A stretch of DNA of 64,000 nucleotides from Patescibacteria group bacterium (GCA_040879165.1 JBBDKV010000017.1:23739-87738); one strand, 5' to 3'; shown: positions 4,548-54,058, numbered from the stretch's first letter. A program made the numbers and translations. The notes: a model not told the origin generated them from the letters alone.

Positions 4548-5204
4548 TTACTCTACTATCTCACCCTTCAACTTTTCAGCTTCAATATGAAAAAAATCAC
4601 TTAAGCTTTTCCTATCAAGAGAACCAATGATAATTGGATCGTCGAGGTGAGCATCTGCTTCAAATAATCTGCTAGCTAACTGGAGTGGGTCAACATGCCA
4701 ATCAAACTTCAATTTTGCTTTCATTCGCAGCTCCTCAGTTCCAAAACCATACTTTCGAATGATTGTGTACAGATCAAAATAATCTCGGCCTCTTGGTTTT
4801 TGAACAATAGTAAACAATTTGTTGGTGGCAATATCAATAACACTGTCAACAAGGAGACCATCTTTTTTCTCTGGATGCTCAATTTGTTCAAAAGGATAAT
4901 AGGTGAACTCTAGTTTGAGAACAGACTCATCCTTGAAACGAATAAAGTATAAATTTCGGTTAAAGCTATTTTGGTAGTCAAATGAAATAAATTCTAACTT
5001 CTTTTGTAGGCTTTTAATTATGACTGTAATGTCTTGCGCATCAAATTCTTCGTGACAGAAAAAATCAAGATCTTCTGAATAACGATGTTGCAAGTAATAG
5101 TGTGAAAGGGCTGTGCCACCACTAAAATAAAAGTGCTCTGCTAGACTCGTTTCTGAGATTAATTTGAGCACTAATTGTTGCTGCTCAGTTAGGATTGTGA
5201 CCAT
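4548..5204 (-). CDS. AbiEii-like nucleotidyltransferase (DUF1814), type IV toxin-antitoxin toxin-like
   Basis: FYFSGGTALSHYYLQHRYSEDLDFF matches the GGTAL...RxSxDLDF signature of AbiEii/DUF1814 nucleotidyltransferases. Confidence 0.7.
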   Translation of the reverse strand: MVTILTEQQQLVLKLISETSLAEHFYFSGGTALSHYYLQHRYSEDLDFFCHEEFDAQDITVIIKSLQKKLEFISFDYQNSFNRNLYFIRFKDESVLKLEFTYYPFEQIEHPEKKDGLLVDSVIDIATNKLFTIVQKPRGRDYFDLYTIIRKYGFGTEELRMKAKLKFDWHVDPLQLASRLFEADAHLDDPIIIGSLDRKSLSDFFHIEAEKLKGEIVE

Positions 5205-7565: not shown

Positions 7566-8171
7566 TTACTTTTCCCAAACAATATGCCCATTCATATCAT
7601 TCTTTTCATAGACCTCAAGAATTTCAGTACAAAACCGCAGGAGGTTTTCATCACCCGATTGTTTAGCTATTTCATATAGCCGAATATACATCTTCTTGCC
7701 TGTTTCAGTTTGCTTGAAGTTTTTCTTCAAAAAATTATGTTGACTACAAAGCGTTTGTCCGTTTTGTAGTGTTGCTCCACCACCCAAGTCTTTGGGTTTA
7801 ATGTGGTCAGCATGAATTTCAACTCCTTCATTTCTACCTCTGCCACATATTACACACTTGTAGTCATCTCTCTCAAAAATTTGCTTTCTCAATGCTGGAG
7901 TAAAGTCTTCAAGCTCTCTGATTTGAATCATACTAGGGTCATATCTATAAATGCCCTTGTTCACTTTGATGAGGTATCCATTTTGGTGCAACTTTCTGAT
8001 TGCTCTATCAGGGTCTCGAAATATCTCACCAGTTCTTTCTAGCCATTCACCTGTAGCCCAGTCAACAATTTCAGGATGACTAATATCTCTCTTGGGATGT
8101 CCTTCAAAATACTCCATTATCAATCCACTTTGGCTGAGCTTTTCTTTTTTTATATCGTCGCTTTTTGACAT
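7566..8171 (-). CDS. HNH endonuclease, putative restriction endonuclease of a type II R-M system
   Basis: CVICGRGRNEGVEIHADHIKPKDLGG...NGQTLCSQHN is an HNH motif with flanking Cys pairs. The N-terminal region is wHTH-like. It lies 17 nt downstream of a C5-methyltransferase on the same strand. Confidence 0.65.
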   Translation of the reverse strand: MSKSDDIKKEKLSQSGLIMEYFEGHPKRDISHPEIVDWATGEWLERTGEIFRDPDRAIRKLHQNGYLIKVNKGIYRYDPSMIQIRELEDFTPALRKQIFERDDYKCVICGRGRNEGVEIHADHIKPKDLGGGATLQNGQTLCSQHNFLKKNFKQTETGKKMYIRLYEIAKQSGDENLLRFCTEILEVYEKNDMNGHIVWEK

Positions 8172-8187: not shown

Positions 8188-9183
8188 TTATTTTAACACT
8201 TTGAGTAAAGATGCGATTTGTTTTGCAACTGCTTCAACCACAGGGACTGCAACAGAGTTCCCAAATTGCCTGTACATTTGTGTCCTAGAAACAGGCACTT
8301 TGAAATCCTTAGGAAATCCCATAATAGCCTTACATTCATTTACAGTGAGAAGTCTCAGCCCAGTTTCTCCATCTTTGACAAATGTTCCAGTAAGTCTTTG
8401 TATCTTGTGGTAAGTCGAAACAAGAGTTTTTACTTGTATCCTTGAACTTTTATCAATGATCTTTGGTCTACCATCATCTTTTTTGAACAGGTAGCTTTCT
8501 TGCAAGTGCTTCGATATGGAATATCCAGAAACGTCTTGCTCAAGAAAATCATTTATGTATGATTTTTCCACGCCACCTGTAGGGAAAGTGAAACTTCTCT
8601 CCTTGAGAAGGTCTTTTCTAAATCCAACAATGTAAATCCGCTTTCTAAATTGTGGCACTCCAAAATCAGAAGCATCTAAAACTTTAGTAAAAACTTTATA
8701 CCCAGCTTCATCTAAGGAGTCTAAAATAACTTGAAATGTTCTTCCACTATCGTGACTGACTAAACCTGGCACATTTTCTAATAAAAATGCTTTGTTTTTT
8801 TTATTCTCGATAATTCTCAGTACGTCATAAAATAGAGTACCCTGAGTAGCATGTAGAAACCCTTGTCTCTTGCCAATAGAACTGAATGGTTGACAGGGGA
8901 ATCCGCCTACTAATACATCAAAATCTGGAATTTCTTTCTCATCTATCTTTGTTATATCACCATGTGGAATCTCTCCAAAATTAGCCTCATAGGTTTTTTG
9001 ACTATGCTTGTCCCACTCTGAAGAAAAAACACATTCTCCCCCAGCATTTTCAAATGCAATTCTAGTGCCTCCAATCCCAGCAAATAAATCAATAAACTTA
9101 AAATCACCAACAGTTGATCTTTTATTCTGGTCTTCAAACAGACTAGGTGCACTCATTTTAGATAATTTTTTTGTGTTACTCAT
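8188..9183 (-). CDS. DNA (cytosine-5)-methyltransferase
   Basis: Motif I FIDLFAGIGG, motif IV GGFPCQPFS and motif VI ENVPGL, with target-recognition and C-terminal motifs present. Confidence 0.9.
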   Translation of the reverse strand: MSNTKKLSKMSAPSLFEDQNKRSTVGDFKFIDLFAGIGGTRIAFENAGGECVFSSEWDKHSQKTYEANFGEIPHGDITKIDEKEIPDFDVLVGGFPCQPFSSIGKRQGFLHATQGTLFYDVLRIIENKKNKAFLLENVPGLVSHDSGRTFQVILDSLDEAGYKVFTKVLDASDFGVPQFRKRIYIVGFRKDLLKERSFTFPTGGVEKSYINDFLEQDVSGYSISKHLQESYLFKKDDGRPKIIDKSSRIQVKTLVSTYHKIQRLTGTFVKDGETGLRLLTVNECKAIMGFPKDFKVPVSRTQMYRQFGNSVAVPVVEAVAKQIASLLKVLK

Positions 9184-13148: not shown

Positions 13149-14264
13149 ATGTCAAAAACCAAAGACAAAAACGAACGCATCAAACGCAAGTATCTCAACT
13201 GGCTACAAGAGGCTGAGGGATTTTCAGAGAAGTCGATCACGGCGGTAGAAAAAGCTCTGTGGAAATATGAAGATTTTATCAAGGATTCAGACTACAGCAC
13301 GTTCAATCATAAGCAGGCTGAACAATTCAAGAAATATCTGACAACCAACAAAAATAAGGTCAGTAACAAAATCCTCTCACTGAGATCGCAATATCACATC
13401 CTCAGGCACGTTCGCAACTTCTTGACTTGGTTATCTGGACAGCTTGGCTATAAGTCCCGTATCTCAACCTACGATGTCCAGTACTTGCAACTGAGCAAAA
13501 AAGATCGGCGGGTTGCGACCTCTGCCTCACTTCCAAAGTATCCCACCCTTGAGCAGATCAAACAGCTTTGTAGCTTTTCAGTTCAAACTGAGCTTGACCA
13601 GCGAGATCGAGCGTTGATAGCCTTTACTGCTCTAACAGGCATGAGAGATCAAGCGATTGTTACCTTGCCACTTGGTTGTTTTGACCAAGAGAAAATGCTC
13701 GTGCAACAGCTCCCAAGCAAAGGTGTTCAAACCAAGTTCAGCAAGGACATTTATACTACTCTTTTTCAGGTAGATGAAACGCTGGCTGGCTACTTTTTGA
13801 AGTGGTACGCTTATTTGAAAACGGAGAAGCATTTTGGGCTGGAAGATCCGATATTTCCGAGTACAGAGGTAGGTTTTGTTAGTAAAAATCACCATGCCTT
13901 TACCCCTATTGGTATTAGTAAAGAGTTCTGGGCAGATACCAATCCGATGCGAAAGATTTTTCAGGAGCGAAGCAAGCAAGCGAACGTGCCTTACTACACC
14001 CCCCATAAGTTCAGGCACTTCATCATCAATGAGGCTCAGAAACACATCACGAGCATTGAACAGCTCAAGGCTCTCAGTCAGAACCTGGGTCATGAAAACA
14101 TAAGCACCACTTTTCATGGCTACGGAGCAATTGATACTTATCGAGTCAATGAGTTGGTCAGTTCTATTGATTTTTCAGGACTTCCCAAGAACCAAGCAGA
14201 AGAAGCTCAACTTGAAAGAATCGCTGATCTTGTCGCTAAAAAATTAGGAAGAAATGAGCTATAA
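13149..14264 (+). CDS. Tyrosine recombinase / phage-type integrase
   Basis: The C-terminal catalytic region has HKFRHF and LGHENISTTFHGYGAI, the R..H..R..Y signature. Confidence 0.85.
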   Translation: MSKTKDKNERIKRKYLNWLQEAEGFSEKSITAVEKALWKYEDFIKDSDYSTFNHKQAEQFKKYLTTNKNKVSNKILSLRSQYHILRHVRNFLTWLSGQLGYKSRISTYDVQYLQLSKKDRRVATSASLPKYPTLEQIKQLCSFSVQTELDQRDRALIAFTALTGMRDQAIVTLPLGCFDQEKMLVQQLPSKGVQTKFSKDIYTTLFQVDETLAGYFLKWYAYLKTEKHFGLEDPIFPSTEVGFVSKNHHAFTPIGISKEFWADTNPMRKIFQERSKQANVPYYTPHKFRHFIINEAQKHITSIEQLKALSQNLGHENISTTFHGYGAIDTYRVNELVSSIDFSGLPKNQAEEAQLERIADLVAKKLGRNEL

Positions 14265-14294
14265 TGTTAGTGTTGACCCAAGTTATAGTGGTGC

Positions 14295-16040
14295 ATGAAA
14301 AAAGGCAGTTCTGCCAACGTATGCACTATGTTGGGTCAACCAGGACTGTCTTTTTATATGAGAATAAGAAAAACACTTACTAGCCTCAAGCCAAGAAAAT
14401 CTGGTCACCCCAAGCAGAATCGGTACATTCTATATGCCCGTAAGTCTACTACCTCAGAAGACCGTCAAGTTGCTTCGATTGAGTCCCAGATCGAAGTGAT
14501 GAAAGAGGTAGCTCGTGAGCATGATTTGGAAGTTTCAGAGGTATTGAGTGAAGCAGGTTCAGGCTTCAAGATAGGTAGACAAGCGTTCAATGCCATGATC
14601 GAAAAGATCGAAAGCGGTGAAGCTGATGGCATCATTGTCTGGAAGCTCTCACGCTTATCTCGTAACCCTGATGATGCGGGCAAAATCATGGGCTTACTGC
14701 AACGAGGTGAAATCAAGCACATTCGCACCGCAGACCGCAACTGGTATCCAGAAGACAACGTGATGATGATGTATGTTGAGTTTGGTATGACCAACCAGTT
14801 TAGTCGTGATCTGAGTTCAGACACTCGCCGAGGATTAGTCAAAAAAGCTGAGCGTGGTTGGTTGCCGAACGCCATTCTCCCACTTGGCTATATGCACAGC
14901 CCATACAAAAAGTTAGGTGATGAAGAAATTATCATTGATAAAAGCCGTTTTGACTTGATTCAAGAGGGTTTGAAGCTGGTAGCTTCTGGACAGAAAACAC
15001 CTGTTGAAGCTCATGGCTATTTAGTTACTCAAGGTGTTGTGGGAAAAAGAAGTGAAGCATTACCTAAAAGCACTTGGTACAAGATGTTAGTTGAACCACT
15101 ATACGCAGGGACTTTTGAGTATCCAATAGGTAGTGGTCAGTTTTATGACTCCAAAGCACCCAGAGCCATAGAACCGACTGAGTACGATGCCATTCAAGTT
15201 GTTTTAGGTAGAAAAGATAAGCCTCGACCCAAGACTCACTTTTTGCCTTACACGGGTTTGATGAAGTGCGGTGAGTGTGGTTGCTCCATTACTGCTGAAA
15301 AGAAGCGGAAAGTGCAGAAAAATGGTAACGTGCATCACTATATCTACTATCACTGTACCAAGAAAAAAGGCGAGTGTGGTCAGCCGTGTACGCCTGTTGA
15401 TACACTTGAGAAGCAATATAAGTCCATTTTGAAACGTATCAAAATCCCCTTAGCCTTTCACGAATGGGCTATTGATGAGATCAAATATGACCAAGAAAAA
15501 GTCATCAGGGATCGTGACACCAGCCTACAACGAACTCGAACAAACTACGATGACTGCCTGAGTGAGATTGATAACTTGGTAAAGAAATACCTTGAGGGGA
15601 AAGTGCCAGAAGACTACTATGATCGCAACCTTGCCAAGCTCAATAAAAACAAAAAGACATTGGCGAAAATCTTGGAGGGTATAGACAAAGGTGTCGATGA
15701 AAACTTGGAAAAAATCGATAAAGACCTAGATTTTGCCGTAACAGCCAGAAGACGCTTCAACCAAGGCAACGACTCCAAACGTCGAGAGATCATTTCCTAT
15801 TTAGGCTCGAACCTCATCCTCAAAGACCATTCACTCGGCATTGAGCTGAGAAAACCGCTGGAATTGGTGGCAGAAATTGCAGAAGAAGTCAATGCTGTTG
15901 CAGAAAAGTTCGAACCTCTAGAAAATGCTGATAATTCGGCACAATTTAAGTTGTATTTGTCTGAAAATCCTGCAATGGGTGGTATACCGGACTTGAACCG
16001 GCGACCTCCGCTGCCACAGAGCGGCGCTCTAACCAACTGA
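14295..16040 (+). CDS. Large serine recombinase (resolvase domain + recombinase domain + zinc ribbon)
   Basis: YARKSTTSEDRQVASIESQ carries the catalytic Ser. GIIVWKLSRLSRN is also present. The CGECGC...YYHCTKKK zinc ribbon fits this family, as does the 581-aa length. The 3' end overlaps tRNA-His. Confidence 0.85.
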   Translation: MKKGSSANVCTMLGQPGLSFYMRIRKTLTSLKPRKSGHPKQNRYILYARKSTTSEDRQVASIESQIEVMKEVAREHDLEVSEVLSEAGSGFKIGRQAFNAMIEKIESGEADGIIVWKLSRLSRNPDDAGKIMGLLQRGEIKHIRTADRNWYPEDNVMMMYVEFGMTNQFSRDLSSDTRRGLVKKAERGWLPNAILPLGYMHSPYKKLGDEEIIIDKSRFDLIQEGLKLVASGQKTPVEAHGYLVTQGVVGKRSEALPKSTWYKMLVEPLYAGTFEYPIGSGQFYDSKAPRAIEPTEYDAIQVVLGRKDKPRPKTHFLPYTGLMKCGECGCSITAEKKRKVQKNGNVHHYIYYHCTKKKGECGQPCTPVDTLEKQYKSILKRIKIPLAFHEWAIDEIKYDQEKVIRDRDTSLQRTRTNYDDCLSEIDNLVKKYLEGKVPEDYYDRNLAKLNKNKKTLAKILEGIDKGVDENLEKIDKDLDFAVTARRRFNQGNDSKRREIISYLGSNLILKDHSLGIELRKPLELVAEIAEEVNAVAEKFEPLENADNSAQFKLYLSENPAMGGIPDLNRRPPLPQSGALTN

Positions 16041-16052
16041 GCTAATACCACC
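15977..16052 (-). tRNA. tRNA-His (GTG)
   Basis: Manual cloverleaf. G-1 plus acceptor GTGGTAT/ATACCAC with C73. D-arm GCTCAGTTGGTTAGAGC. Anticodon loop CTGTGGC. T-arm GCCGG-TTCAAGT-CCGGT. Confidence 0.85.
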
Positions 16053-39115: not shown

Positions 39116-39211
39116 GTGCAGTATGAGCACAAAACCAGATAAAAAAATTATTCAGCAAAGAGTTGATCCGCGCCACACATTCATACAAAAAAATCCAGCT
39201 TCGCGGGATTT

Positions 39212-39238
39212 TTCTGTATGAGCGGGTGAAGGGAGTCT
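39212..39238 (-). repeat. Partial direct copy of the tRNA-Gly 3' end (about 25 nt with a 3-nt indel)
   Basis: tttttctg(tat)gagcgggtgaagggagtc here versus tttttctgagcgggtgaagggagtc at the genuine tRNA 3' end (39363-39386). Confidence 0.6.
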
Positions 39239-39334
39239 ACGACTCACTCGTTTCACTCGTTCGCATGCATTAGCCAGCCCCGCTGGAGCGGGGTTGGCGG
39301 CAGAACCAAAGAGTTGATCCATGCCACCACCTCA

Positions 39335-39367
39335 GAAAAATATTGACCCTGTCGGGTCATTATTTTT
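39335..39367 (-). terminator. Rho-independent terminator downstream of tRNA-Gly
   Basis: Hairpin gaccc-tgtc-gggtc flanked by an A-run and a T-run, reading on the minus strand. Confidence 0.5.
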
Positions 39368-39370
39368 CTG

Positions 39371-39442
39371 AGCGGGTGAAGGGAGTCGAACCCTCGTCAC
39401 CAGTTTGGAAAACTGGAGCTCTGACCGTTGAGCTACACCCGC
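39371..39442 (-). tRNA. tRNA-Gly (TCC)
   Basis: Acceptor GCGGGTG/CACCCGC. D-arm GCTCAACGGTCAGAGC. Anticodon stem CCAGT/ACTGG with loop TTTCCAA. T-arm GAGGG-TTCGACT-CCCTT. Confidence 0.85.
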
Positions 39443-41086: not shown

Positions 41087-41153
41087 TCAGGGAGTAGCTC
41101 AGATGGTAGGTGCGCCCCGCTTAGCGGGGTGAGGTCACTACCTGCGACCCTGA
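41087..41153 (+). pseudogene. Degenerate tRNA-Pro-like copy
   Basis: The 5' half (GGGAGTAGCTCAGATGGTAG-GTGCGC) is near-identical to tRNA-Pro, with a 1-nt deletion in the D-stem. The anticodon region is replaced by a tight CCCCGC-TTA-GCGGGG hairpin, with no T-arm or acceptor closure. Confidence 0.4.
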
Positions 41154-41179: not shown

Positions 41180-41252
41180 CGGGGAGTAGCTCAGATGGTA
41201 GAGTGCGCGCTTTGGGAGCGTGAGGTCGCAGGTTCGAGCCCTGTCTCCCCGA
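41180..41252 (+). tRNA. tRNA-Pro (TGG)
   Basis: Acceptor CGGGGAG/CTCCCCG. D-arm GCTCAGATGGTAGAGT. Anticodon stem CGCGC/GCGTG with loop TTTGGGA. T-arm GCAGG-TTCGAGC-CCTGT. Confidence 0.85.
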
Positions 41253-41281
41253 CATAGTAAGCAACGCGAGTAAAAAGGGGA

Positions 41282-41323
41282 GAACAAGGCGAGAAGTTTA
41301 CCCCGCAAAGCGGGGAGTCCTGT
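41282..41323 (+). repeat. GAGAAGTTTACCCC + CCCCGC-AAA-GCGGGG hairpin + partial copy of the tRNA-Pro 3' end (cctgtctccccga)
   Basis: A 13-nt exact repeat of tRNA-Pro 41240-41252 lies at 41310-41322. It is preceded by a perfect GC-rich hairpin and a leader also found downstream of tRNA-Gln. Confidence 0.6.
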
Positions 41324-41351
41324 CTCCCCGATAAGTAGTTAGGAGTTCAAA

Positions 41352-53738: not shown

Positions 53739-53809
53739 CTGCCCCGTCGTCCAATGGCAGGACAGCGGCCTTTGAAGCCGTTAATCTAGGTTCGAATCCT
53801 AGCGGGGCA
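53739..53809 (+). tRNA. tRNA-Gln (TTG)
   Basis: U1-A72 acceptor TGCCCCG/CGGGGCA. D-arm GTCC-AATGGCA-GGAC. Anticodon stem GCGGC/GCCGT with loop CTTTGAA. T-arm CTAGG-TTCGAAT-CCTAG. Confidence 0.8.
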
Positions 53810-53926
53810 TCATACAGAATAACTGGCTCAAGCCAGTTTTTCTGTATTTGTCCCCAGATAGAGGCGGGGCTGTTGCGCCGTCGAGATGCGCAGCATCCCG
53901 AGTAGTGCTGGGAGCGAAGCGAACAG

Positions 53927-54022
53927 TGAATCCTAGCGGGGCATCAGTGAACGCAGTGAACTGAGATTTCGCGTAGGATGAGAAGTTTACCCCACTATGG
54001 CGGGGAATCCTAGCGGAGCATC
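53927..54022 (+). repeat. Two partial direct copies of the tRNA-Gln 3' end, the second preceded by GAGAAGTTTACCCC + a CCCCAC-TATG-GCGGGG hairpin
   Basis: gaatcctagcggggcatca (53927-53945) and aatcctagcggagcatca (54005-54022) repeat tRNA 53791-53809. The leader gagaagtttacccc (53979-53992) is identical to the one at 41282-41295. Confidence 0.6.
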
Positions 54023-54032
54023 AGATAATAAA

Positions 54033-54058
54033 AACCAGCTTGGACTGGTTTTTTTGTA
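54033..54058 (+). terminator. Rho-independent terminator-like hairpin
   Basis: ccagcttggactgg followed by ttttttt. Confidence 0.5.

What the first reader, a model, noticed from the sequence alone, without database searches (positions are those of the whole stretch)
41253..41335. A shared GAGAAGTTTACCCC + CCCCGC-N3-4-GCGGGG module followed by a tRNA 3'-end copy occurs downstream of tRNA-Pro, tRNA-Gln and (variant) tRNA-Gly
The 14-mer gagaagtttacccc occurs at 41282-41295 and 53979-53992. Each time it is followed by a GC hairpin (ccccgcaaagcgggg or ccccactatggcgggg) and then a copy of the 3' end of the adjacent tRNA (Pro or Gln). The tRNA-Gly locus has the same hairpin class (ccccgctggagcgggg) before its tRNA copy. 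A further variant (tttgtccccagatagaggcgggg) precedes the first tRNA-Gln copy. A conserved arm next to variable tRNA-derived cores suggests attL or attR remnants from a family of related integrative elements that use different tRNAs. Alternatively it could be a small tRNA-associated non-coding element.
Basis: seen in the sequence. Interest (0 to 1): 0.75.

Follow-up and report, generated by a model that had tools for sequence, protein, structure and literature searches.

The report
Miniature hairpin module duplicating tRNA ends
Downstream of tRNA-Pro and tRNA-Gln lies a conserved 26-nt hairpin module followed by a copy of the tRNA's last 16-17 bases; the same module occurs behind many different tRNA genes in several bacterial phyla and looks like an undescribed, gene-less insertion cassette that targets the T-loop of tRNA genes.

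Summary
GAGAAGTTTA plus a CCCCRC/GCGGGG hairpin (module M) occurs twice in the window. Each copy is followed by tRNA positions 58-73 of the upstream tRNA (A') and preceded by an arm (S) complementary to that copy.

Exact-pattern scans found the same S-M-A' anatomy about 125 times, behind at least 12 tRNA isotypes. Hosts include Bacteroidota, Paceibacterota, Neomarinimicrobiota and a Pseudomonadales MAG. S covaries with the tRNA, and the hairpin's closing pair covaries (T-A or C-G). The terminal repeat is typically 17 nt (A58-C74). M sits about 17 nt after the tRNA terminator. Units form tandem arrays, decay, and are present or absent at orthologous loci. No integrase or other recurrent gene lies nearby. 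There is no Rfam family, no viral or plasmid hit, and no paper containing the sequence.

Best reading (about 0.4): a miniature, non-autonomous integrative cassette inserted at T-loop position 57|58. It re-supplies the tRNA 3' end and displaces the original. S-M-A would be a folded, integron attC-like recombination site, with the recombinase unknown and acting in trans.

Rivals are a structured RNA, scars of larger islands, and a target-site-duplicating integrase. The tRNA-Gly and first tRNA-Gln "variants" share only the tRNA copy, an S-like stem and, for Gly, the hairpin class.

The parts
41180..41253 (+). tRNA-Pro(UGG), the intact target gene. Its positions 58-73 (41237-41252) are the sequence that is duplicated downstream.
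   Evidence: ARAGORN and Rfam tRNA at 62.5 bits.
41254..41276 (+). Trailer and linker between tRNA-Pro and the module (catagtaagcaacgcgagtaaaaa). It ends in an A-tract and contains no terminator.
   Evidence: Sequence. An A-rich stretch at -14 to -10 is a family feature.
41277..41290 (+). S arm (GGGGAGAACAAGGC). It is complementary, with 3 bulges, to the duplicated tRNA-Pro segment N59-C71.
   Evidence: Predicted fold and duplex energy of -17.6 kcal/mol, ranked 1 of 14 partners. The family-wide S:A' helix covaries.
41291..41315 (+). Module M: the conserved 10-mer GAGAAGTTTA (41291-41300) plus the hairpin CCCCGC-AAA-GCGGGG (41301-41315).
   Evidence: The same module occurs in other phyla.
41316..41331 (+). 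A': a copy of tRNA-Pro positions 58-73 (AGTCCTGTCTCCCCGA), with one mismatch at N60.
   Evidence: the repeat finder family D4.
53740..53811 (+). tRNA-Gln(UUG), followed by an intrinsic terminator (about 53822-53846).
53907..53946 (+). First tRNA-Gln 3'-end copy (53928-53946, 19/19 identical). It is preceded by an S-like arm, GCTGGGA (53907-53913), which pairs with TCCTAGC across a 17-nt loop. There is no module M.
   Evidence: The fold is weak (z -1.3). No covariance-model hit.
53970..53979 (+). S arm of the Gln module (CGCGTAGGAT). It is complementary to ATCCTA-GCG of the following copy.
53980..54005 (+). Module M, second copy: GAGAAGTTTA plus the hairpin CCCCAC-TATG-GCGGGG, which has one A.C mismatch.
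54006..54023 (+). A': a second copy of the tRNA-Gln 3' end from A58 (AATCCTAGCGGAGCATCA), with one mismatch. It is followed by a terminator (about 54030-54056).
39220..39293 (-). tRNA-Gly locus. It holds a copy of the tRNA-Gly 3' end (39220-39237), an S-like arm (39246-39256, pairing 9 of 11 positions), and a CCCCGCTCCAGCGGGG hairpin (39278-39293) 41 nt upstream of the copy. It is related in theme but is not a canonical module.
   Evidence: Fold z -2.9. The covariance model matches the hairpin only.
39370..39442 (-). tRNA-Gly(UCC), the gene whose 3' end and about 34-nt downstream flank are duplicated 150 nt further on.
   Evidence: repeat families D1 and D2.

Best explanation
The Pro and second Gln features belong to a widespread family of gene-less miniature insertion cassettes that target the 3' part of tRNA genes. 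I found no prior description of this family.

A unit has five parts in order:
- A: tRNA positions 58-74.
- X: a trailer, usually with an intrinsic terminator.
- A short A-rich linker.
- S: 4-16 nt complementary to N59 onwards.
- M: GAGAAGTTTA plus the hairpin YCCCGC(C)-loop-(G)GCGGGR.

Inferred mechanism: the unit enters the tRNA gene between T-loop positions 57 and 58. The gene is completed by the unit's own A and terminator, and the native 3' end (A') is pushed downstream, directly behind M. The junction S-M-A is the recombination site. On one strand it folds into an outer stem (S:A), an asymmetric internal loop (the 10-mer against A58) and an inner hairpin. This resembles an integron attC site, with the tRNA T-loop playing the part of attI. 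Repeated insertion or unequal exchange builds tandem arrays, and distal copies decay. The enzyme acts in trans and is not identified.

Shown here: the anatomy, the covariation, the breadth across tRNAs and phyla, the 17-nt repeat, the arrays, presence/absence at orthologous loci, and the lack of linked genes.

Inferred only: recombination at 57|58, a folded single-strand site, and action in trans.
For: 1. Breadth. The same module sits 10-150 nt behind tRNA genes for Ser, Lys, Met, Leu, Asn, Arg, Asp, Thr, Tyr, Gln, Ile and Pro. Hosts are Bacteroidota (several orders), Paceibacterota, Neomarinimicrobiota and a Pseudomonadales MAG.
2. Junction. M is always followed by A58 and then the cognate tRNA's T-stem and acceptor 3' strand. 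Of 96 unique instances, the first three bases are AGT in 65, AGC in 19 and AAT in 8.
3. Repeat length. The terminal direct repeat is exactly 17 nt (A58-C74) in 14 or more independent loci, with unrelated trailers on the two sides. It is longer only where whole units are repeated.
4. Covariation. The S:A' helix has double-sided changes at 8 of 9 pairs. 84.7% of cells are paired against 72.8% in shuffles (0 of 500 reach the observed value) and 38-51% in slid controls. The hairpin's closing pair is U-A in 33 sequences and C-G in 15. A close relative found independently of the motif carries CCCCGAT/ATCGGGG in place of CCCCGCC/GGCGGGG.
5. Geometry. The terminator T-tract lies at -24 to -18 from M, an A-rich stretch at -14 to -10, and S at -7 to -1.
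6. Arrays and decay. Tandem arrays have periods of 57, 61 and 95-115 nt and vary in copy number between close relatives. Distal copies are decayed: the 10-mer is lost, A' is mutated, and other hairpins are nested inside A'.
7. Polymorphism. Eight orthologous tRNA-Leu(UAG) loci were compared, four of them chosen through a neighbouring gene and so blind to the motif. Four have intact modules, one has units without the 10-mer, two are empty, and one holds a prophage.
8. Cargo. One unit carries a 4.7-kb restriction-modification plus LexA segment.
9. No linked gene. Among 245 ORFs within 4 kb of modules, the largest family has 6 members and reflects synteny.
Against: - No recombinase or other enzyme was identified, and no free or circular form can be seen in these data.
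- A tandem duplication is circularly ambiguous. At the best empty/filled comparison (L145 against L006), the only material not derivable from the empty site is S plus M, about 31 nt. A target-site-duplicating insertion of S-M therefore fits equally well.
- Units at different tRNAs of one genome share only M, not trailer or linker. There is thus no sign of recent movement between tRNAs.
- How S and A would both be retargeted to a new tRNA is unexplained.
- Modules persist at orthologous loci whose flanking proteins are only 60-68% identical. Resident selfish copies would be expected to decay over that distance, which hints at host-level selection or an RNA role. The set is, however, ascertained through the motif itself.
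- A test of whether S matches its own unit's A or the following A' was indecisive: 5 against 2 informative sites within N59-65.
Confidence: 0.4

Rival explanations
1. S-M-A' is a small structured RNA, or an RNA signal acting in cis. It would be a T-arm or minihelix mimic of the upstream tRNA, with the T-loop replaced by a conserved 10-nt single strand plus a hairpin. It could be made by read-through of the tRNA terminator and might be cut out by tRNA-processing enzymes. Alternatively, on the opposite strand it could act as a terminator that shields the tRNA gene from antisense transcription.
For: - Both helices covary.
- The hairpin shows compensatory changes in a relative sampled without reference to the motif.
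- The unpaired 10-mer is invariant across phyla, which suggests a trans partner. The search pattern forced this, however.
- Modules are retained at orthologous loci whose neighbouring proteins are 60-68% identical.
- The window copies fold better than shuffled sequence (z -3.9 for Pro, z -1.8 for Gln2).
- An A-tract directly 5' of S would give a stem followed by a U-tract on the antisense strand.
- In the window, the Pro copy lies in the leader of the next ORF with no terminator in between.
Against: - Most copies lie about 17 nt after an intrinsic terminator, and no conserved promoter motif is present.
- There is no Rfam match, even at permissive thresholds.
- S usually pairs only with N59-N65. 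The acceptor part of A' is left unpaired, so most copies are not minihelices (21-45% Watson-Crick at pairs 8-12).
- A' accumulates mutations and nested insertions.
- Units are tandemly amplified, lose the 10-mer, or are absent in orthologous loci.
- Compensatory changes in DNA palindromes can arise by template switching without any selection on RNA.
Confidence: 0.2
2. One reading: the modules are attR-side scars of larger, integrase-encoding islands or prophages that used different tRNAs. After internal deletion, only the P-arm-proximal sequence (S-M) and the displaced tRNA end remain.
For: - The A58-to-gene-end repeat is the classical signature of integrase-mediated insertion at the T-loop sublocation. 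This rests on general knowledge, and PMC9897764 (the bioRxiv version was read) describes partial tRNA genes as products of element integration.
- One unit encloses 4.7 kb of cargo.
- The sequence distal to the arrays differs between close relatives, as at an integration hot spot.
- The window has a tyrosine integrase and a serine recombinase at tRNA-His.
Against: - Of about 75 modules with a same-strand tRNA in the fetched DNA, 62 lie within 150 nt of it, 11 lie further along an array, and only one is kilobases away.
- Independent deletions would not leave the same geometry.
- No integrase family recurs nearby.
- Two module patterns gave no match in IMG/VR, and a consensus query gave none in PLSDB.
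- A prophage with an integrase at an orthologous tRNA-Leu shows no module in the 10 kb fetched.
- No module or tRNA copy is associated with the tRNA-His element in the window.
Confidence: 0.15
3. Only S-M (about 31-90 bp with its left flank) is inserted. A transposase-like, casposase/Cas1-like or HUH-type enzyme makes staggered cuts at 57|58 and downstream, most often at 74|75. Gap repair then duplicates the intervening tRNA segment as a 17-bp or longer target-site duplication. S acts as a guide that pairs with the target strand, as the guide next to the hairpin does in IS200/IS605 ends.
For: - Compared with an empty orthologous site, the only new sequence is S plus M; everything else is duplicated host DNA.
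- The repeat length has a sharp mode at 17 nt.
- The topology of guide, conserved single strand, hairpin and complementary site matches the right end of IS608-type elements (own knowledge).
- M resembles a type I-E CRISPR repeat, GTTTA-CCCCGC-loop-GCGGGG-A, and real arrays with that repeat were picked up by the same pattern.
Against: - The left end of the presumed insert carries no inverted copy of M.
- Repeats of 17-75 nt are outside the range of known transposases.
- No Y1/HUH, Cas1 or DDE gene recurs near modules.
- In loci with a 17-nt repeat, the insert would have to bring its own terminator.
- Units at different tRNAs of one genome are not similar outside M.
Confidence: 0.15

Closest known systems
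Integrative elements that insert into the T-loop/3' end of tRNA genes (tyrosine-integrase islands, prophages, tycheposons, CIME-type derivatives)
   Same: The target is the 3' part of a tRNA gene. The direct repeat runs from the T-loop to the end of the gene. The gene stays intact and the native 3' end is displaced. Tandem accretion occurs, and different family members use different tRNAs.
   Different: Units are 54-115 bp with no integrase and usually no cargo. The arm next to the core is a 26-28-nt module conserved across phyla, plus a tRNA-specific inverted arm. None was found in viral or plasmid collections.
Integron gene cassettes and attC sites (including integrase-less attC clusters, CALINs)
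   Same: Arrays of short units each end in an imperfect hairpin site made of two helices separated by an unpaired spacer. The newest-looking units lie next to a fixed primary site, and distal units are more decayed. The arrays exist without a linked integrase. Cargo is optional.
   Different: The primary site is a tRNA T-loop, not attI. The conserved part is the inner hairpin and spacer, whereas the outer helix (the counterpart of the R box) varies with the target. There is no GTTRRRY/RYYYAAC core, no IntI nearby, and most units carry only a terminator.
REP/REPIN elements with RAYT, and IS200/IS605 ends (HUH Y1 transposases)
   Same: A short GC-rich hairpin carries a conserved single-stranded tag on its 5' side. 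A guide sequence 5' of the hairpin is complementary to a site 3' of it. The elements are non-autonomous, multicopy and intergenic.
   Different: The guide pairing here is 4-16 nt rather than 4 nt. The elements are strictly tied to tRNA 3' ends and come with a 17-nt duplication. The same sequence is found in different phyla, whereas REPs are lineage-specific. No RAYT or TnpA gene was seen.
Type I-E CRISPR repeats
   Same: The sequence GTTTA-CCCCGC-loop-GCGGGG-A is nearly identical to a real repeat, GTTTACCCCGCATGCGCGGGGATCGACC. Some arrays have a 57-61-nt period.
   Different: The 'spacers' are identical copies of a tRNA end plus linker. Most periods are 95-115 nt. No cas genes were seen. The repeat's 3' handle (ATCGACC) is replaced by tRNA sequence.
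tRNA-like minihelix or T-arm mimics (tRNA-like processing signals)
   Same: The stem is built from the T-stem and acceptor 3' strand of a real tRNA, and in a minority of copies it forms a full 12-16-bp minihelix.
   Different: The T-loop is replaced by a 38-nt insert. In most copies the acceptor strand is unpaired. The element lies behind a terminator, and no Rfam family matches.

Membership tests
tRNA-targeting integrative element (att site pair) | A direct repeat of the tRNA 3' segment flanks the inserted DNA, and the tRNA gene remains intact. | tested here: met
   The repeat is 16-19 nt in the window and has a mode of 17 nt (A58-C74) across loci.
tRNA-targeting integrative element (att site pair) | An integrase gene lies inside the element, usually next to one att site. 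| tested here: not met
   Units are 54-115 nt with no ORF. No recombinase family recurs within 4 kb. The window ORFs next to the modules have no recombinase domain.
tRNA-targeting integrative element (att site pair) | The element occurs as a free or excised form, or in phage or plasmid genomes that carry attP. | tested here: not met
   No match in viral contigs and none in plasmids. Excised circles cannot be seen in assemblies.
Integron cassette array / attC | The site is an imperfect inverted repeat that folds into two helices with an unpaired spacer and a variable terminal structure. | tested here: met
   The outer S:A' helix, the 10-nt/1-nt internal loop and the inner hairpin are all present, and both helices covary.
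Integron cassette array / attC | Conserved R''/R' core sequences (RYYYAAC ... GTTRRRY). | tested here: not met
   GAGAAGTTTAY and the tRNA-derived arm do not fit the consensus (sequences).
Integron cassette array / attC | IntI integrase and attI lie at the head of the array. | tested here: not met
   The head of every array is a tRNA gene, and there is no integrase nearby.
REP/REPIN-RAYT or IS200/IS605 end | A hairpin with a conserved 5' tag, dispersed in many intergenic regions of one genome. | tested here: inconclusive
   The hairpin plus tag is present. All true copies lie behind tRNA genes, however. There are only 2 in the 64-kb window and 3 loci each in two MAGs. Whole genomes could not be scanned.
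REP/REPIN-RAYT or IS200/IS605 end | A cognate Y1 HUH transposase gene is present in the genome. | not testable with these tools
   Only loci of 14 kb or less around modules were available. None of the 245 neighbouring ORFs formed a recurrent family.
CRISPR array (type I-E-like) | Identical repeats are separated by unique spacers of uniform length. | tested here: not met
   The intervening sequences are copies of the same tRNA end and linker. Periods range from 57 to 115 nt.
CRISPR array (type I-E-like) | Adjacent cas genes. | tested here: not met
   No recurrent neighbouring family. True CRISPR hits to the same pattern were recognised and set aside.
Described structured RNA family (Rfam) | A match to a curated covariance model. 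| tested here: not met
   Only tRNA models match, in the window at gathering threshold. At E up to 10 around the Pro module there is only a 12-bit Whalefall-1 chance hit. There is nothing in L122.
MITE (miniature inverted-repeat transposable element) | Terminal inverted repeats derived from a parent IS, with a short fixed target-site duplication. | tested here: not met
   The inverted arms are target-derived (the tRNA sequence) and differ between loci. The left boundary of the unit has no inverted copy of M.

The most novel reading that the evidence does not exclude
S-M is the business end of a programmable, guide-bearing insertion system. A conserved 26-28-nt scaffold (the 10-mer plus hairpin) would be recognised by a still unknown enzyme acting in trans. 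The adjacent S arm would select the target by base-pairing with the tRNA gene strand from N59 onwards, so that strand transfer joins the 3' end of M to A58. The S:A' stem seen in every integrated copy would then be the fossil of the guide-target duplex. Changing S would retarget the element to another tRNA, or to any other sequence.
Probability: 0.12. Interest if true: 0.9.

Novelty: new variant of a known kind. Interest (0 to 1): 0.7.

Why it matters
tRNA genes are the commonest landing sites for mobile DNA, and partial tRNA copies are routinely read as scars of large islands. This work shows a different, very small and very regular object. It is a conserved 26-28-nt module with a target-complementary arm, found behind at least a dozen tRNA species in Bacteroidota, CPR bacteria and other phyla, without any linked gene.

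If it is a cassette system, it would be the smallest integrative unit known. It would also be a tRNA-anchored analogue of integron arrays, with an unidentified recombinase to find. If the S arm acts as a guide, it would be a compact natural example of sequence-programmed insertion. If it is an RNA, it is a new widespread tRNA-linked motif.

There are practical consequences as well. The units break short-read assemblies at tRNA genes: several loci start or end inside arrays (for example L007, L011 and L016), and the Logan contig carrying the window's Pro locus begins exactly at tRNA-Pro. They may also lead island-prediction methods that rely on partial tRNA repeats to call false islands.

Tried and rejected
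- **Chance.** Rejected.
- **CRISPR.** The pattern also hits genuine type I-E-like arrays whose spacers end in GAGAA (L008, L025 and others). The tRNA-linked copies have identical 'spacers' and no cas genes.
- **Coding-region false positives.** Acidobacteriaceae hits of the form ...CCCGAGAAGTTTACCCCGTCRGCGGGRAAGATCAC were removed.
- **S as a copy of the tRNA's own T-stem 5' strand.** Rejected. S pairs with loop bases N59-N60 and, in some loci, with the acceptor 3' strand. These are not contiguous with the T-stem 5' strand in a tRNA gene. At tRNA-Leu(UAG), S (GGAC) differs from the T-stem strand (AGGAG).
- **Primer-binding-site reading.** S never includes the complement of the 3' terminal bases or CCA, so it could not prime from a tRNA 3' end.
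- **XerCD/dif, the integron R box and the Bacteroides CTnDOT core.** I saw no resemblance by eye. These comparisons were made from memory and were not computed.
- **Strand-asymmetry test (G.T against A.C mismatches), to separate folding of one strand from duplex recognition.** The raw counts favour G.T (52 against 18). The excess comes from N59-N60, which are G/T-rich, so the test is inconclusive.
- **Does S co-inherit with the upstream or the downstream tRNA copy?** 5 against 2 informative sites, so indecisive.
- **Empty-site test for the window's own loci.** This failed. The ORF after the Pro module is an orphan, and synteny around tRNA-Gln is not conserved in Paceibacteria relatives.
- **A linked enzyme.** None found.
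- **Literature.** Full-text searches for the sequence and for related concepts found nothing.

Full report
**What is in the window**

ARAGORN and Rfam find six tRNA genes. The 14-mer GAGAAGTTTACCCC occurs exactly twice, at 41291-41304 and 53980-53993. The first-stage coordinates were off by 9 and 1.

Both copies have the same layout:
- The 10-mer GAGAAGTTTA comes first.
- A GC hairpin follows: CCCCGC-AAA-GCGGGG at Pro, and CCCCAC-TATG-GCGGGG at Gln.
- Directly after the hairpin comes a copy of the upstream tRNA, running from T-loop position A58 to the discriminator. These copies are 41316-41331 for tRNA-Pro and 54006-54020 for tRNA-Gln.

One feature was not noted before. The 10-14 nt directly 5' of the 10-mer are complementary to the tRNA copy: GGGGAGAACAAGGC at Pro and CGCGTAGGAT at Gln. 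The whole therefore folds as an outer stem, a 10-nt/1-nt internal loop and an inner hairpin (-26.2 kcal/mol, z -3.9 for Pro; z -1.8 for Gln). I call these parts S (the arm), M (the 10-mer plus hairpin) and A' (the tRNA 3' copy).

tRNA-Gln has an additional perfect 3' copy at 53928-53946, and tRNA-Gly has one at 39220-39237. Both are preceded by a shorter S-like stem, but M is not adjacent. At Gly, a hairpin of the same class (39278-39293) lies 41 nt away. A covariance model of the family finds only the two full modules in the window and matches the Gly hairpin only as a hairpin.

**The module is a widespread family**

An exact-pattern scan of one genome per species returned 17 loci:
- One is a true CRISPR array.
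- Two are hits inside a homologous coding region.
- The other 14 come from Cryomorphaceae, Flavobacteriales, Saprospiraceae, Chitinophagaceae, Lentimicrobium, Daejeonella, other Bacteroidota, Paceibacterota, Neomarinimicrobiota and a Pseudomonadales MAG.

All of the 14 with enough flanking sequence show the same S-M-A' anatomy. Where the tRNA is in the fetched DNA, the module lies 25-71 nt behind a tRNA gene for Ser, Lys, Met, Leu, Asn or Arg.

After removing CRISPR and coding hits, about 125 module instances remain, 96 of them unique. They add Asp, Thr, Tyr, Gln and Ile to the list of tRNAs. The dominant form has a T-A closing pair (TCCCGCC...GGCGGGA). The window has the C-G form.

The window itself comes from a Paceibacteria-like CPR MAG.

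**Family anatomy**

- M is always followed by A58, then N59-N60 and the T-stem 3' strand of the cognate tRNA.
- The terminal repeat shared by the tRNA and A' is most often exactly 17 nt (A58 to C74), with unrelated sequence beyond it. It is longer only where whole units are tandemly repeated.
- Upstream of M the spacing is regular. The T-tract of the tRNA's intrinsic terminator lies at -24 to -18, an A-rich stretch at -14 to -10, and S at -7 to -1.
- Arrays of 2-4 units occur, with periods of 57, 61 and 95-115 nt.

**Covariation**

On 51 diverse sequences:
- The S:A' helix has double-sided changes at 8 of 9 pairs.
- 84.7% of cells are paired, against 72.8% in shuffles (0 of 500 reach the observed value) and 38-51% when the partner columns are slid.
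- The hairpin's closing pair is U-A in 33 sequences and C-G in 15.

S also tracks the loop bases. AC pairs with GT, GC with GC, and AT with AT at N59-N60. In some loci S continues into the acceptor strand for 12-16 bp. S is therefore not a copy of the tRNA's own T-stem 5' strand.

A relative chosen through a neighbouring gene, without reference to the motif, has CCCCGAT/ATCGGGG where others have CCCCGCC/GGCGGGG.

**Dynamics**

I took the gene next to tRNA-Leu(UAG) in one carrier and fetched orthologous loci without reference to the motif. Taking these together with four motif-selected loci whose neighbouring proteins are 60-80% identical, the states are:
- Intact modules: L006, L013, L053, L110 and L152.
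- Two units with S and the hairpin but no 10-mer: L147.
- Empty sites: L145 and L148.
- A prophage with a tyrosine integrase directly behind the tRNA: L146/L149. No module lies within the 10 kb fetched, and the prophage's distal end was not reached.

Compared with the empty site L145, the filled site L006 adds only S plus M. Everything else is a duplicate of the tRNA 3' part, trailer and linker.

Distal units are the more decayed ones. Other small GC hairpins are nested inside some A' copies. One unit encloses a 4.7-kb restriction-modification plus LexA segment bounded by 85-bp inverted repeats.

**What is not there**

- No gene family recurs among 245 ORFs within 4 kb of modules.
- No Rfam family matches.
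- Two patterns gave no match in 2.9 million viral contigs.
- A consensus query found nothing in PLSDB.
- No paper in the library contains the sequence, and concept searches found nothing similar. The general idea that partial tRNA genes mark integrated elements is established (PMC9897764; bioRxiv version read).

**Interpretation**

Three features are the signature of insertion into the 3' part of a tRNA gene: the A58-to-gene-end repeat, the intact tRNA, and the unrelated trailers on the two sides. The small and regular size, the arrays and the lack of genes argue that the unit itself, and not a decayed island, is the thing that inserts.

I therefore favour a non-autonomous cassette of the form [A - trailer/terminator - linker - S - M]. 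It would recombine at 57|58, with S-M-A as a folded site analogous to integron attC (confidence 0.4).

The data do not distinguish this model from insertion of S-M alone with a long target duplication (0.15). An RNA role also cannot be excluded, given the covariation and the persistence at diverged orthologous loci (0.2).

Two attempted discriminators were inconclusive: G.T against A.C asymmetry, and whether S matches the upstream or the downstream tRNA copy.

**Verdict**

The 'variants' at Gly and at the first Gln copy are related in theme only. The att-like interpretation is partly right. The object belongs to a cross-phylum family of miniature tRNA-end modules for which I found no prior description. 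Its enzyme and its strand or chemical form (DNA or RNA) remain to be found.

Noticed in passing
window 41088-41150 (+): A pseudo-tRNA-Pro lies between tRNA-Leu and tRNA-Pro. Its first 20 nt are identical to the acceptor and D-arm of tRNA-Pro. The anticodon arm is replaced by CCCCGC-TTA-GCGGGG, which is the same length (15 nt). The variable-loop sequence TGAGGTC is kept. It is followed by an inverted copy of GGTCGCAGGT. Together with the downstream module, this leaves the intact tRNA-Pro bracketed by two hairpins of the same class.
   Followed up: partly
L122 183-240 and 312-360: Two tRNA 5' pieces (…AGCTCAGCTGGTAG / …AGCTCAGCTGGCAG) are each followed directly by a YCCCGC…GCGGGA hairpin. They lie downstream of a canonical module in an unrelated metagenome contig. 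This is the same arrangement as the pseudo-tRNA-Pro in the window. There is no Rfam match.
   Followed up: partly
window 13149-16051: A tyrosine integrase (13149-14264) and a large serine recombinase (14295-16040) abut the 3' end of tRNA-His (15977-16051, minus strand), and the serine recombinase ORF overlaps it. Further out lie an AbiEii toxin (4548-5204), an HNH endonuclease (7566-8171) and a C5 cytosine methyltransferase (8188-9183) in a low-GC stretch. This is probably an integrated island. No second copy of the tRNA-His 3' end occurs in the window.
   Followed up: partly
window 39156-39189 and 39307-39340; 39210-39237 and 39360-39387: The tRNA-Gly duplication is a 150-nt unit. Besides the tRNA 3' end and a terminator, it repeats CAAAGAGTTGATCC…GCCAC (76% identity). 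The duplicated segment therefore extends well past the gene on this locus.
   Followed up: no
window 53914-53930, 53947-53965, 39238-39262: Short purine-rich motifs of the type GCGAAGCGAACAGTGAA, GTGAACGCAGTGAAC and GCGAACGAGTGAAACGAGTGAG recur next to the tRNA copies of Gln and Gly. Their meaning is unknown.
   Followed up: no
L021 3884-4125: In a Paceibacteria MAG, tRNA-Asp is followed by a terminator. Next comes the reverse complement of its positions 54-73, split by a 26-nt hairpin. About 70 nt further on is a direct copy of positions 54-70. This is an inverted-plus-direct tRNA-end repeat without module M.
   Followed up: no
L060, L066, L085, L093, L127, L133, L143 (just after the module): A second kind of small GC-rich insert (CCTGYCYGYCC…, for example CCTGCCTGCCGGAGGCAGG) is nested inside the displaced tRNA copy, usually at the boundary between the T-stem and the acceptor strand. 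A similar GCCTGCCCCTG sits at the empty site in L145.
   Followed up: no
L059 3808-8793: A 4.7-kb segment sits inside a module unit behind tRNA-Asn. It holds a C5 methyltransferase, Vsr, a LexA-like repressor and unknown ORFs. It is bounded by about 85-bp inverted repeats whose outer tips resemble the tRNA-Asn 3' end.
   Followed up: partly
L008, L025, L037, L041, L042 and about 15 further metagenome loci: A genuine type I-E-like CRISPR repeat, GTTTACCCCGCATGCGCGGGGATCGACC, is almost identical to the module from GTTTA through GCGGGGA. I could not tell whether this is convergence or shared ancestry.
   Followed up: partly
trailers of module-bearing tRNAs (e.g. L004, L010, L015, L029, L039, L082): The trailer directly after C74 often begins GAAGT(A/G)A or a close variant. 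This is the same pentamer as in the module's GAGAAGTTTA. It was not seen in 12 tRNAs without modules, nor in the flanks after terminal copies. The sample is small and may reflect lineage.
   Followed up: partly
L021 8836-9203, L022, L024: Small free-standing HNH_3 endonuclease genes lie directly downstream of tRNA-Gln, or close to it, in Paceibacteria relatives of the window organism.
   Followed up: no
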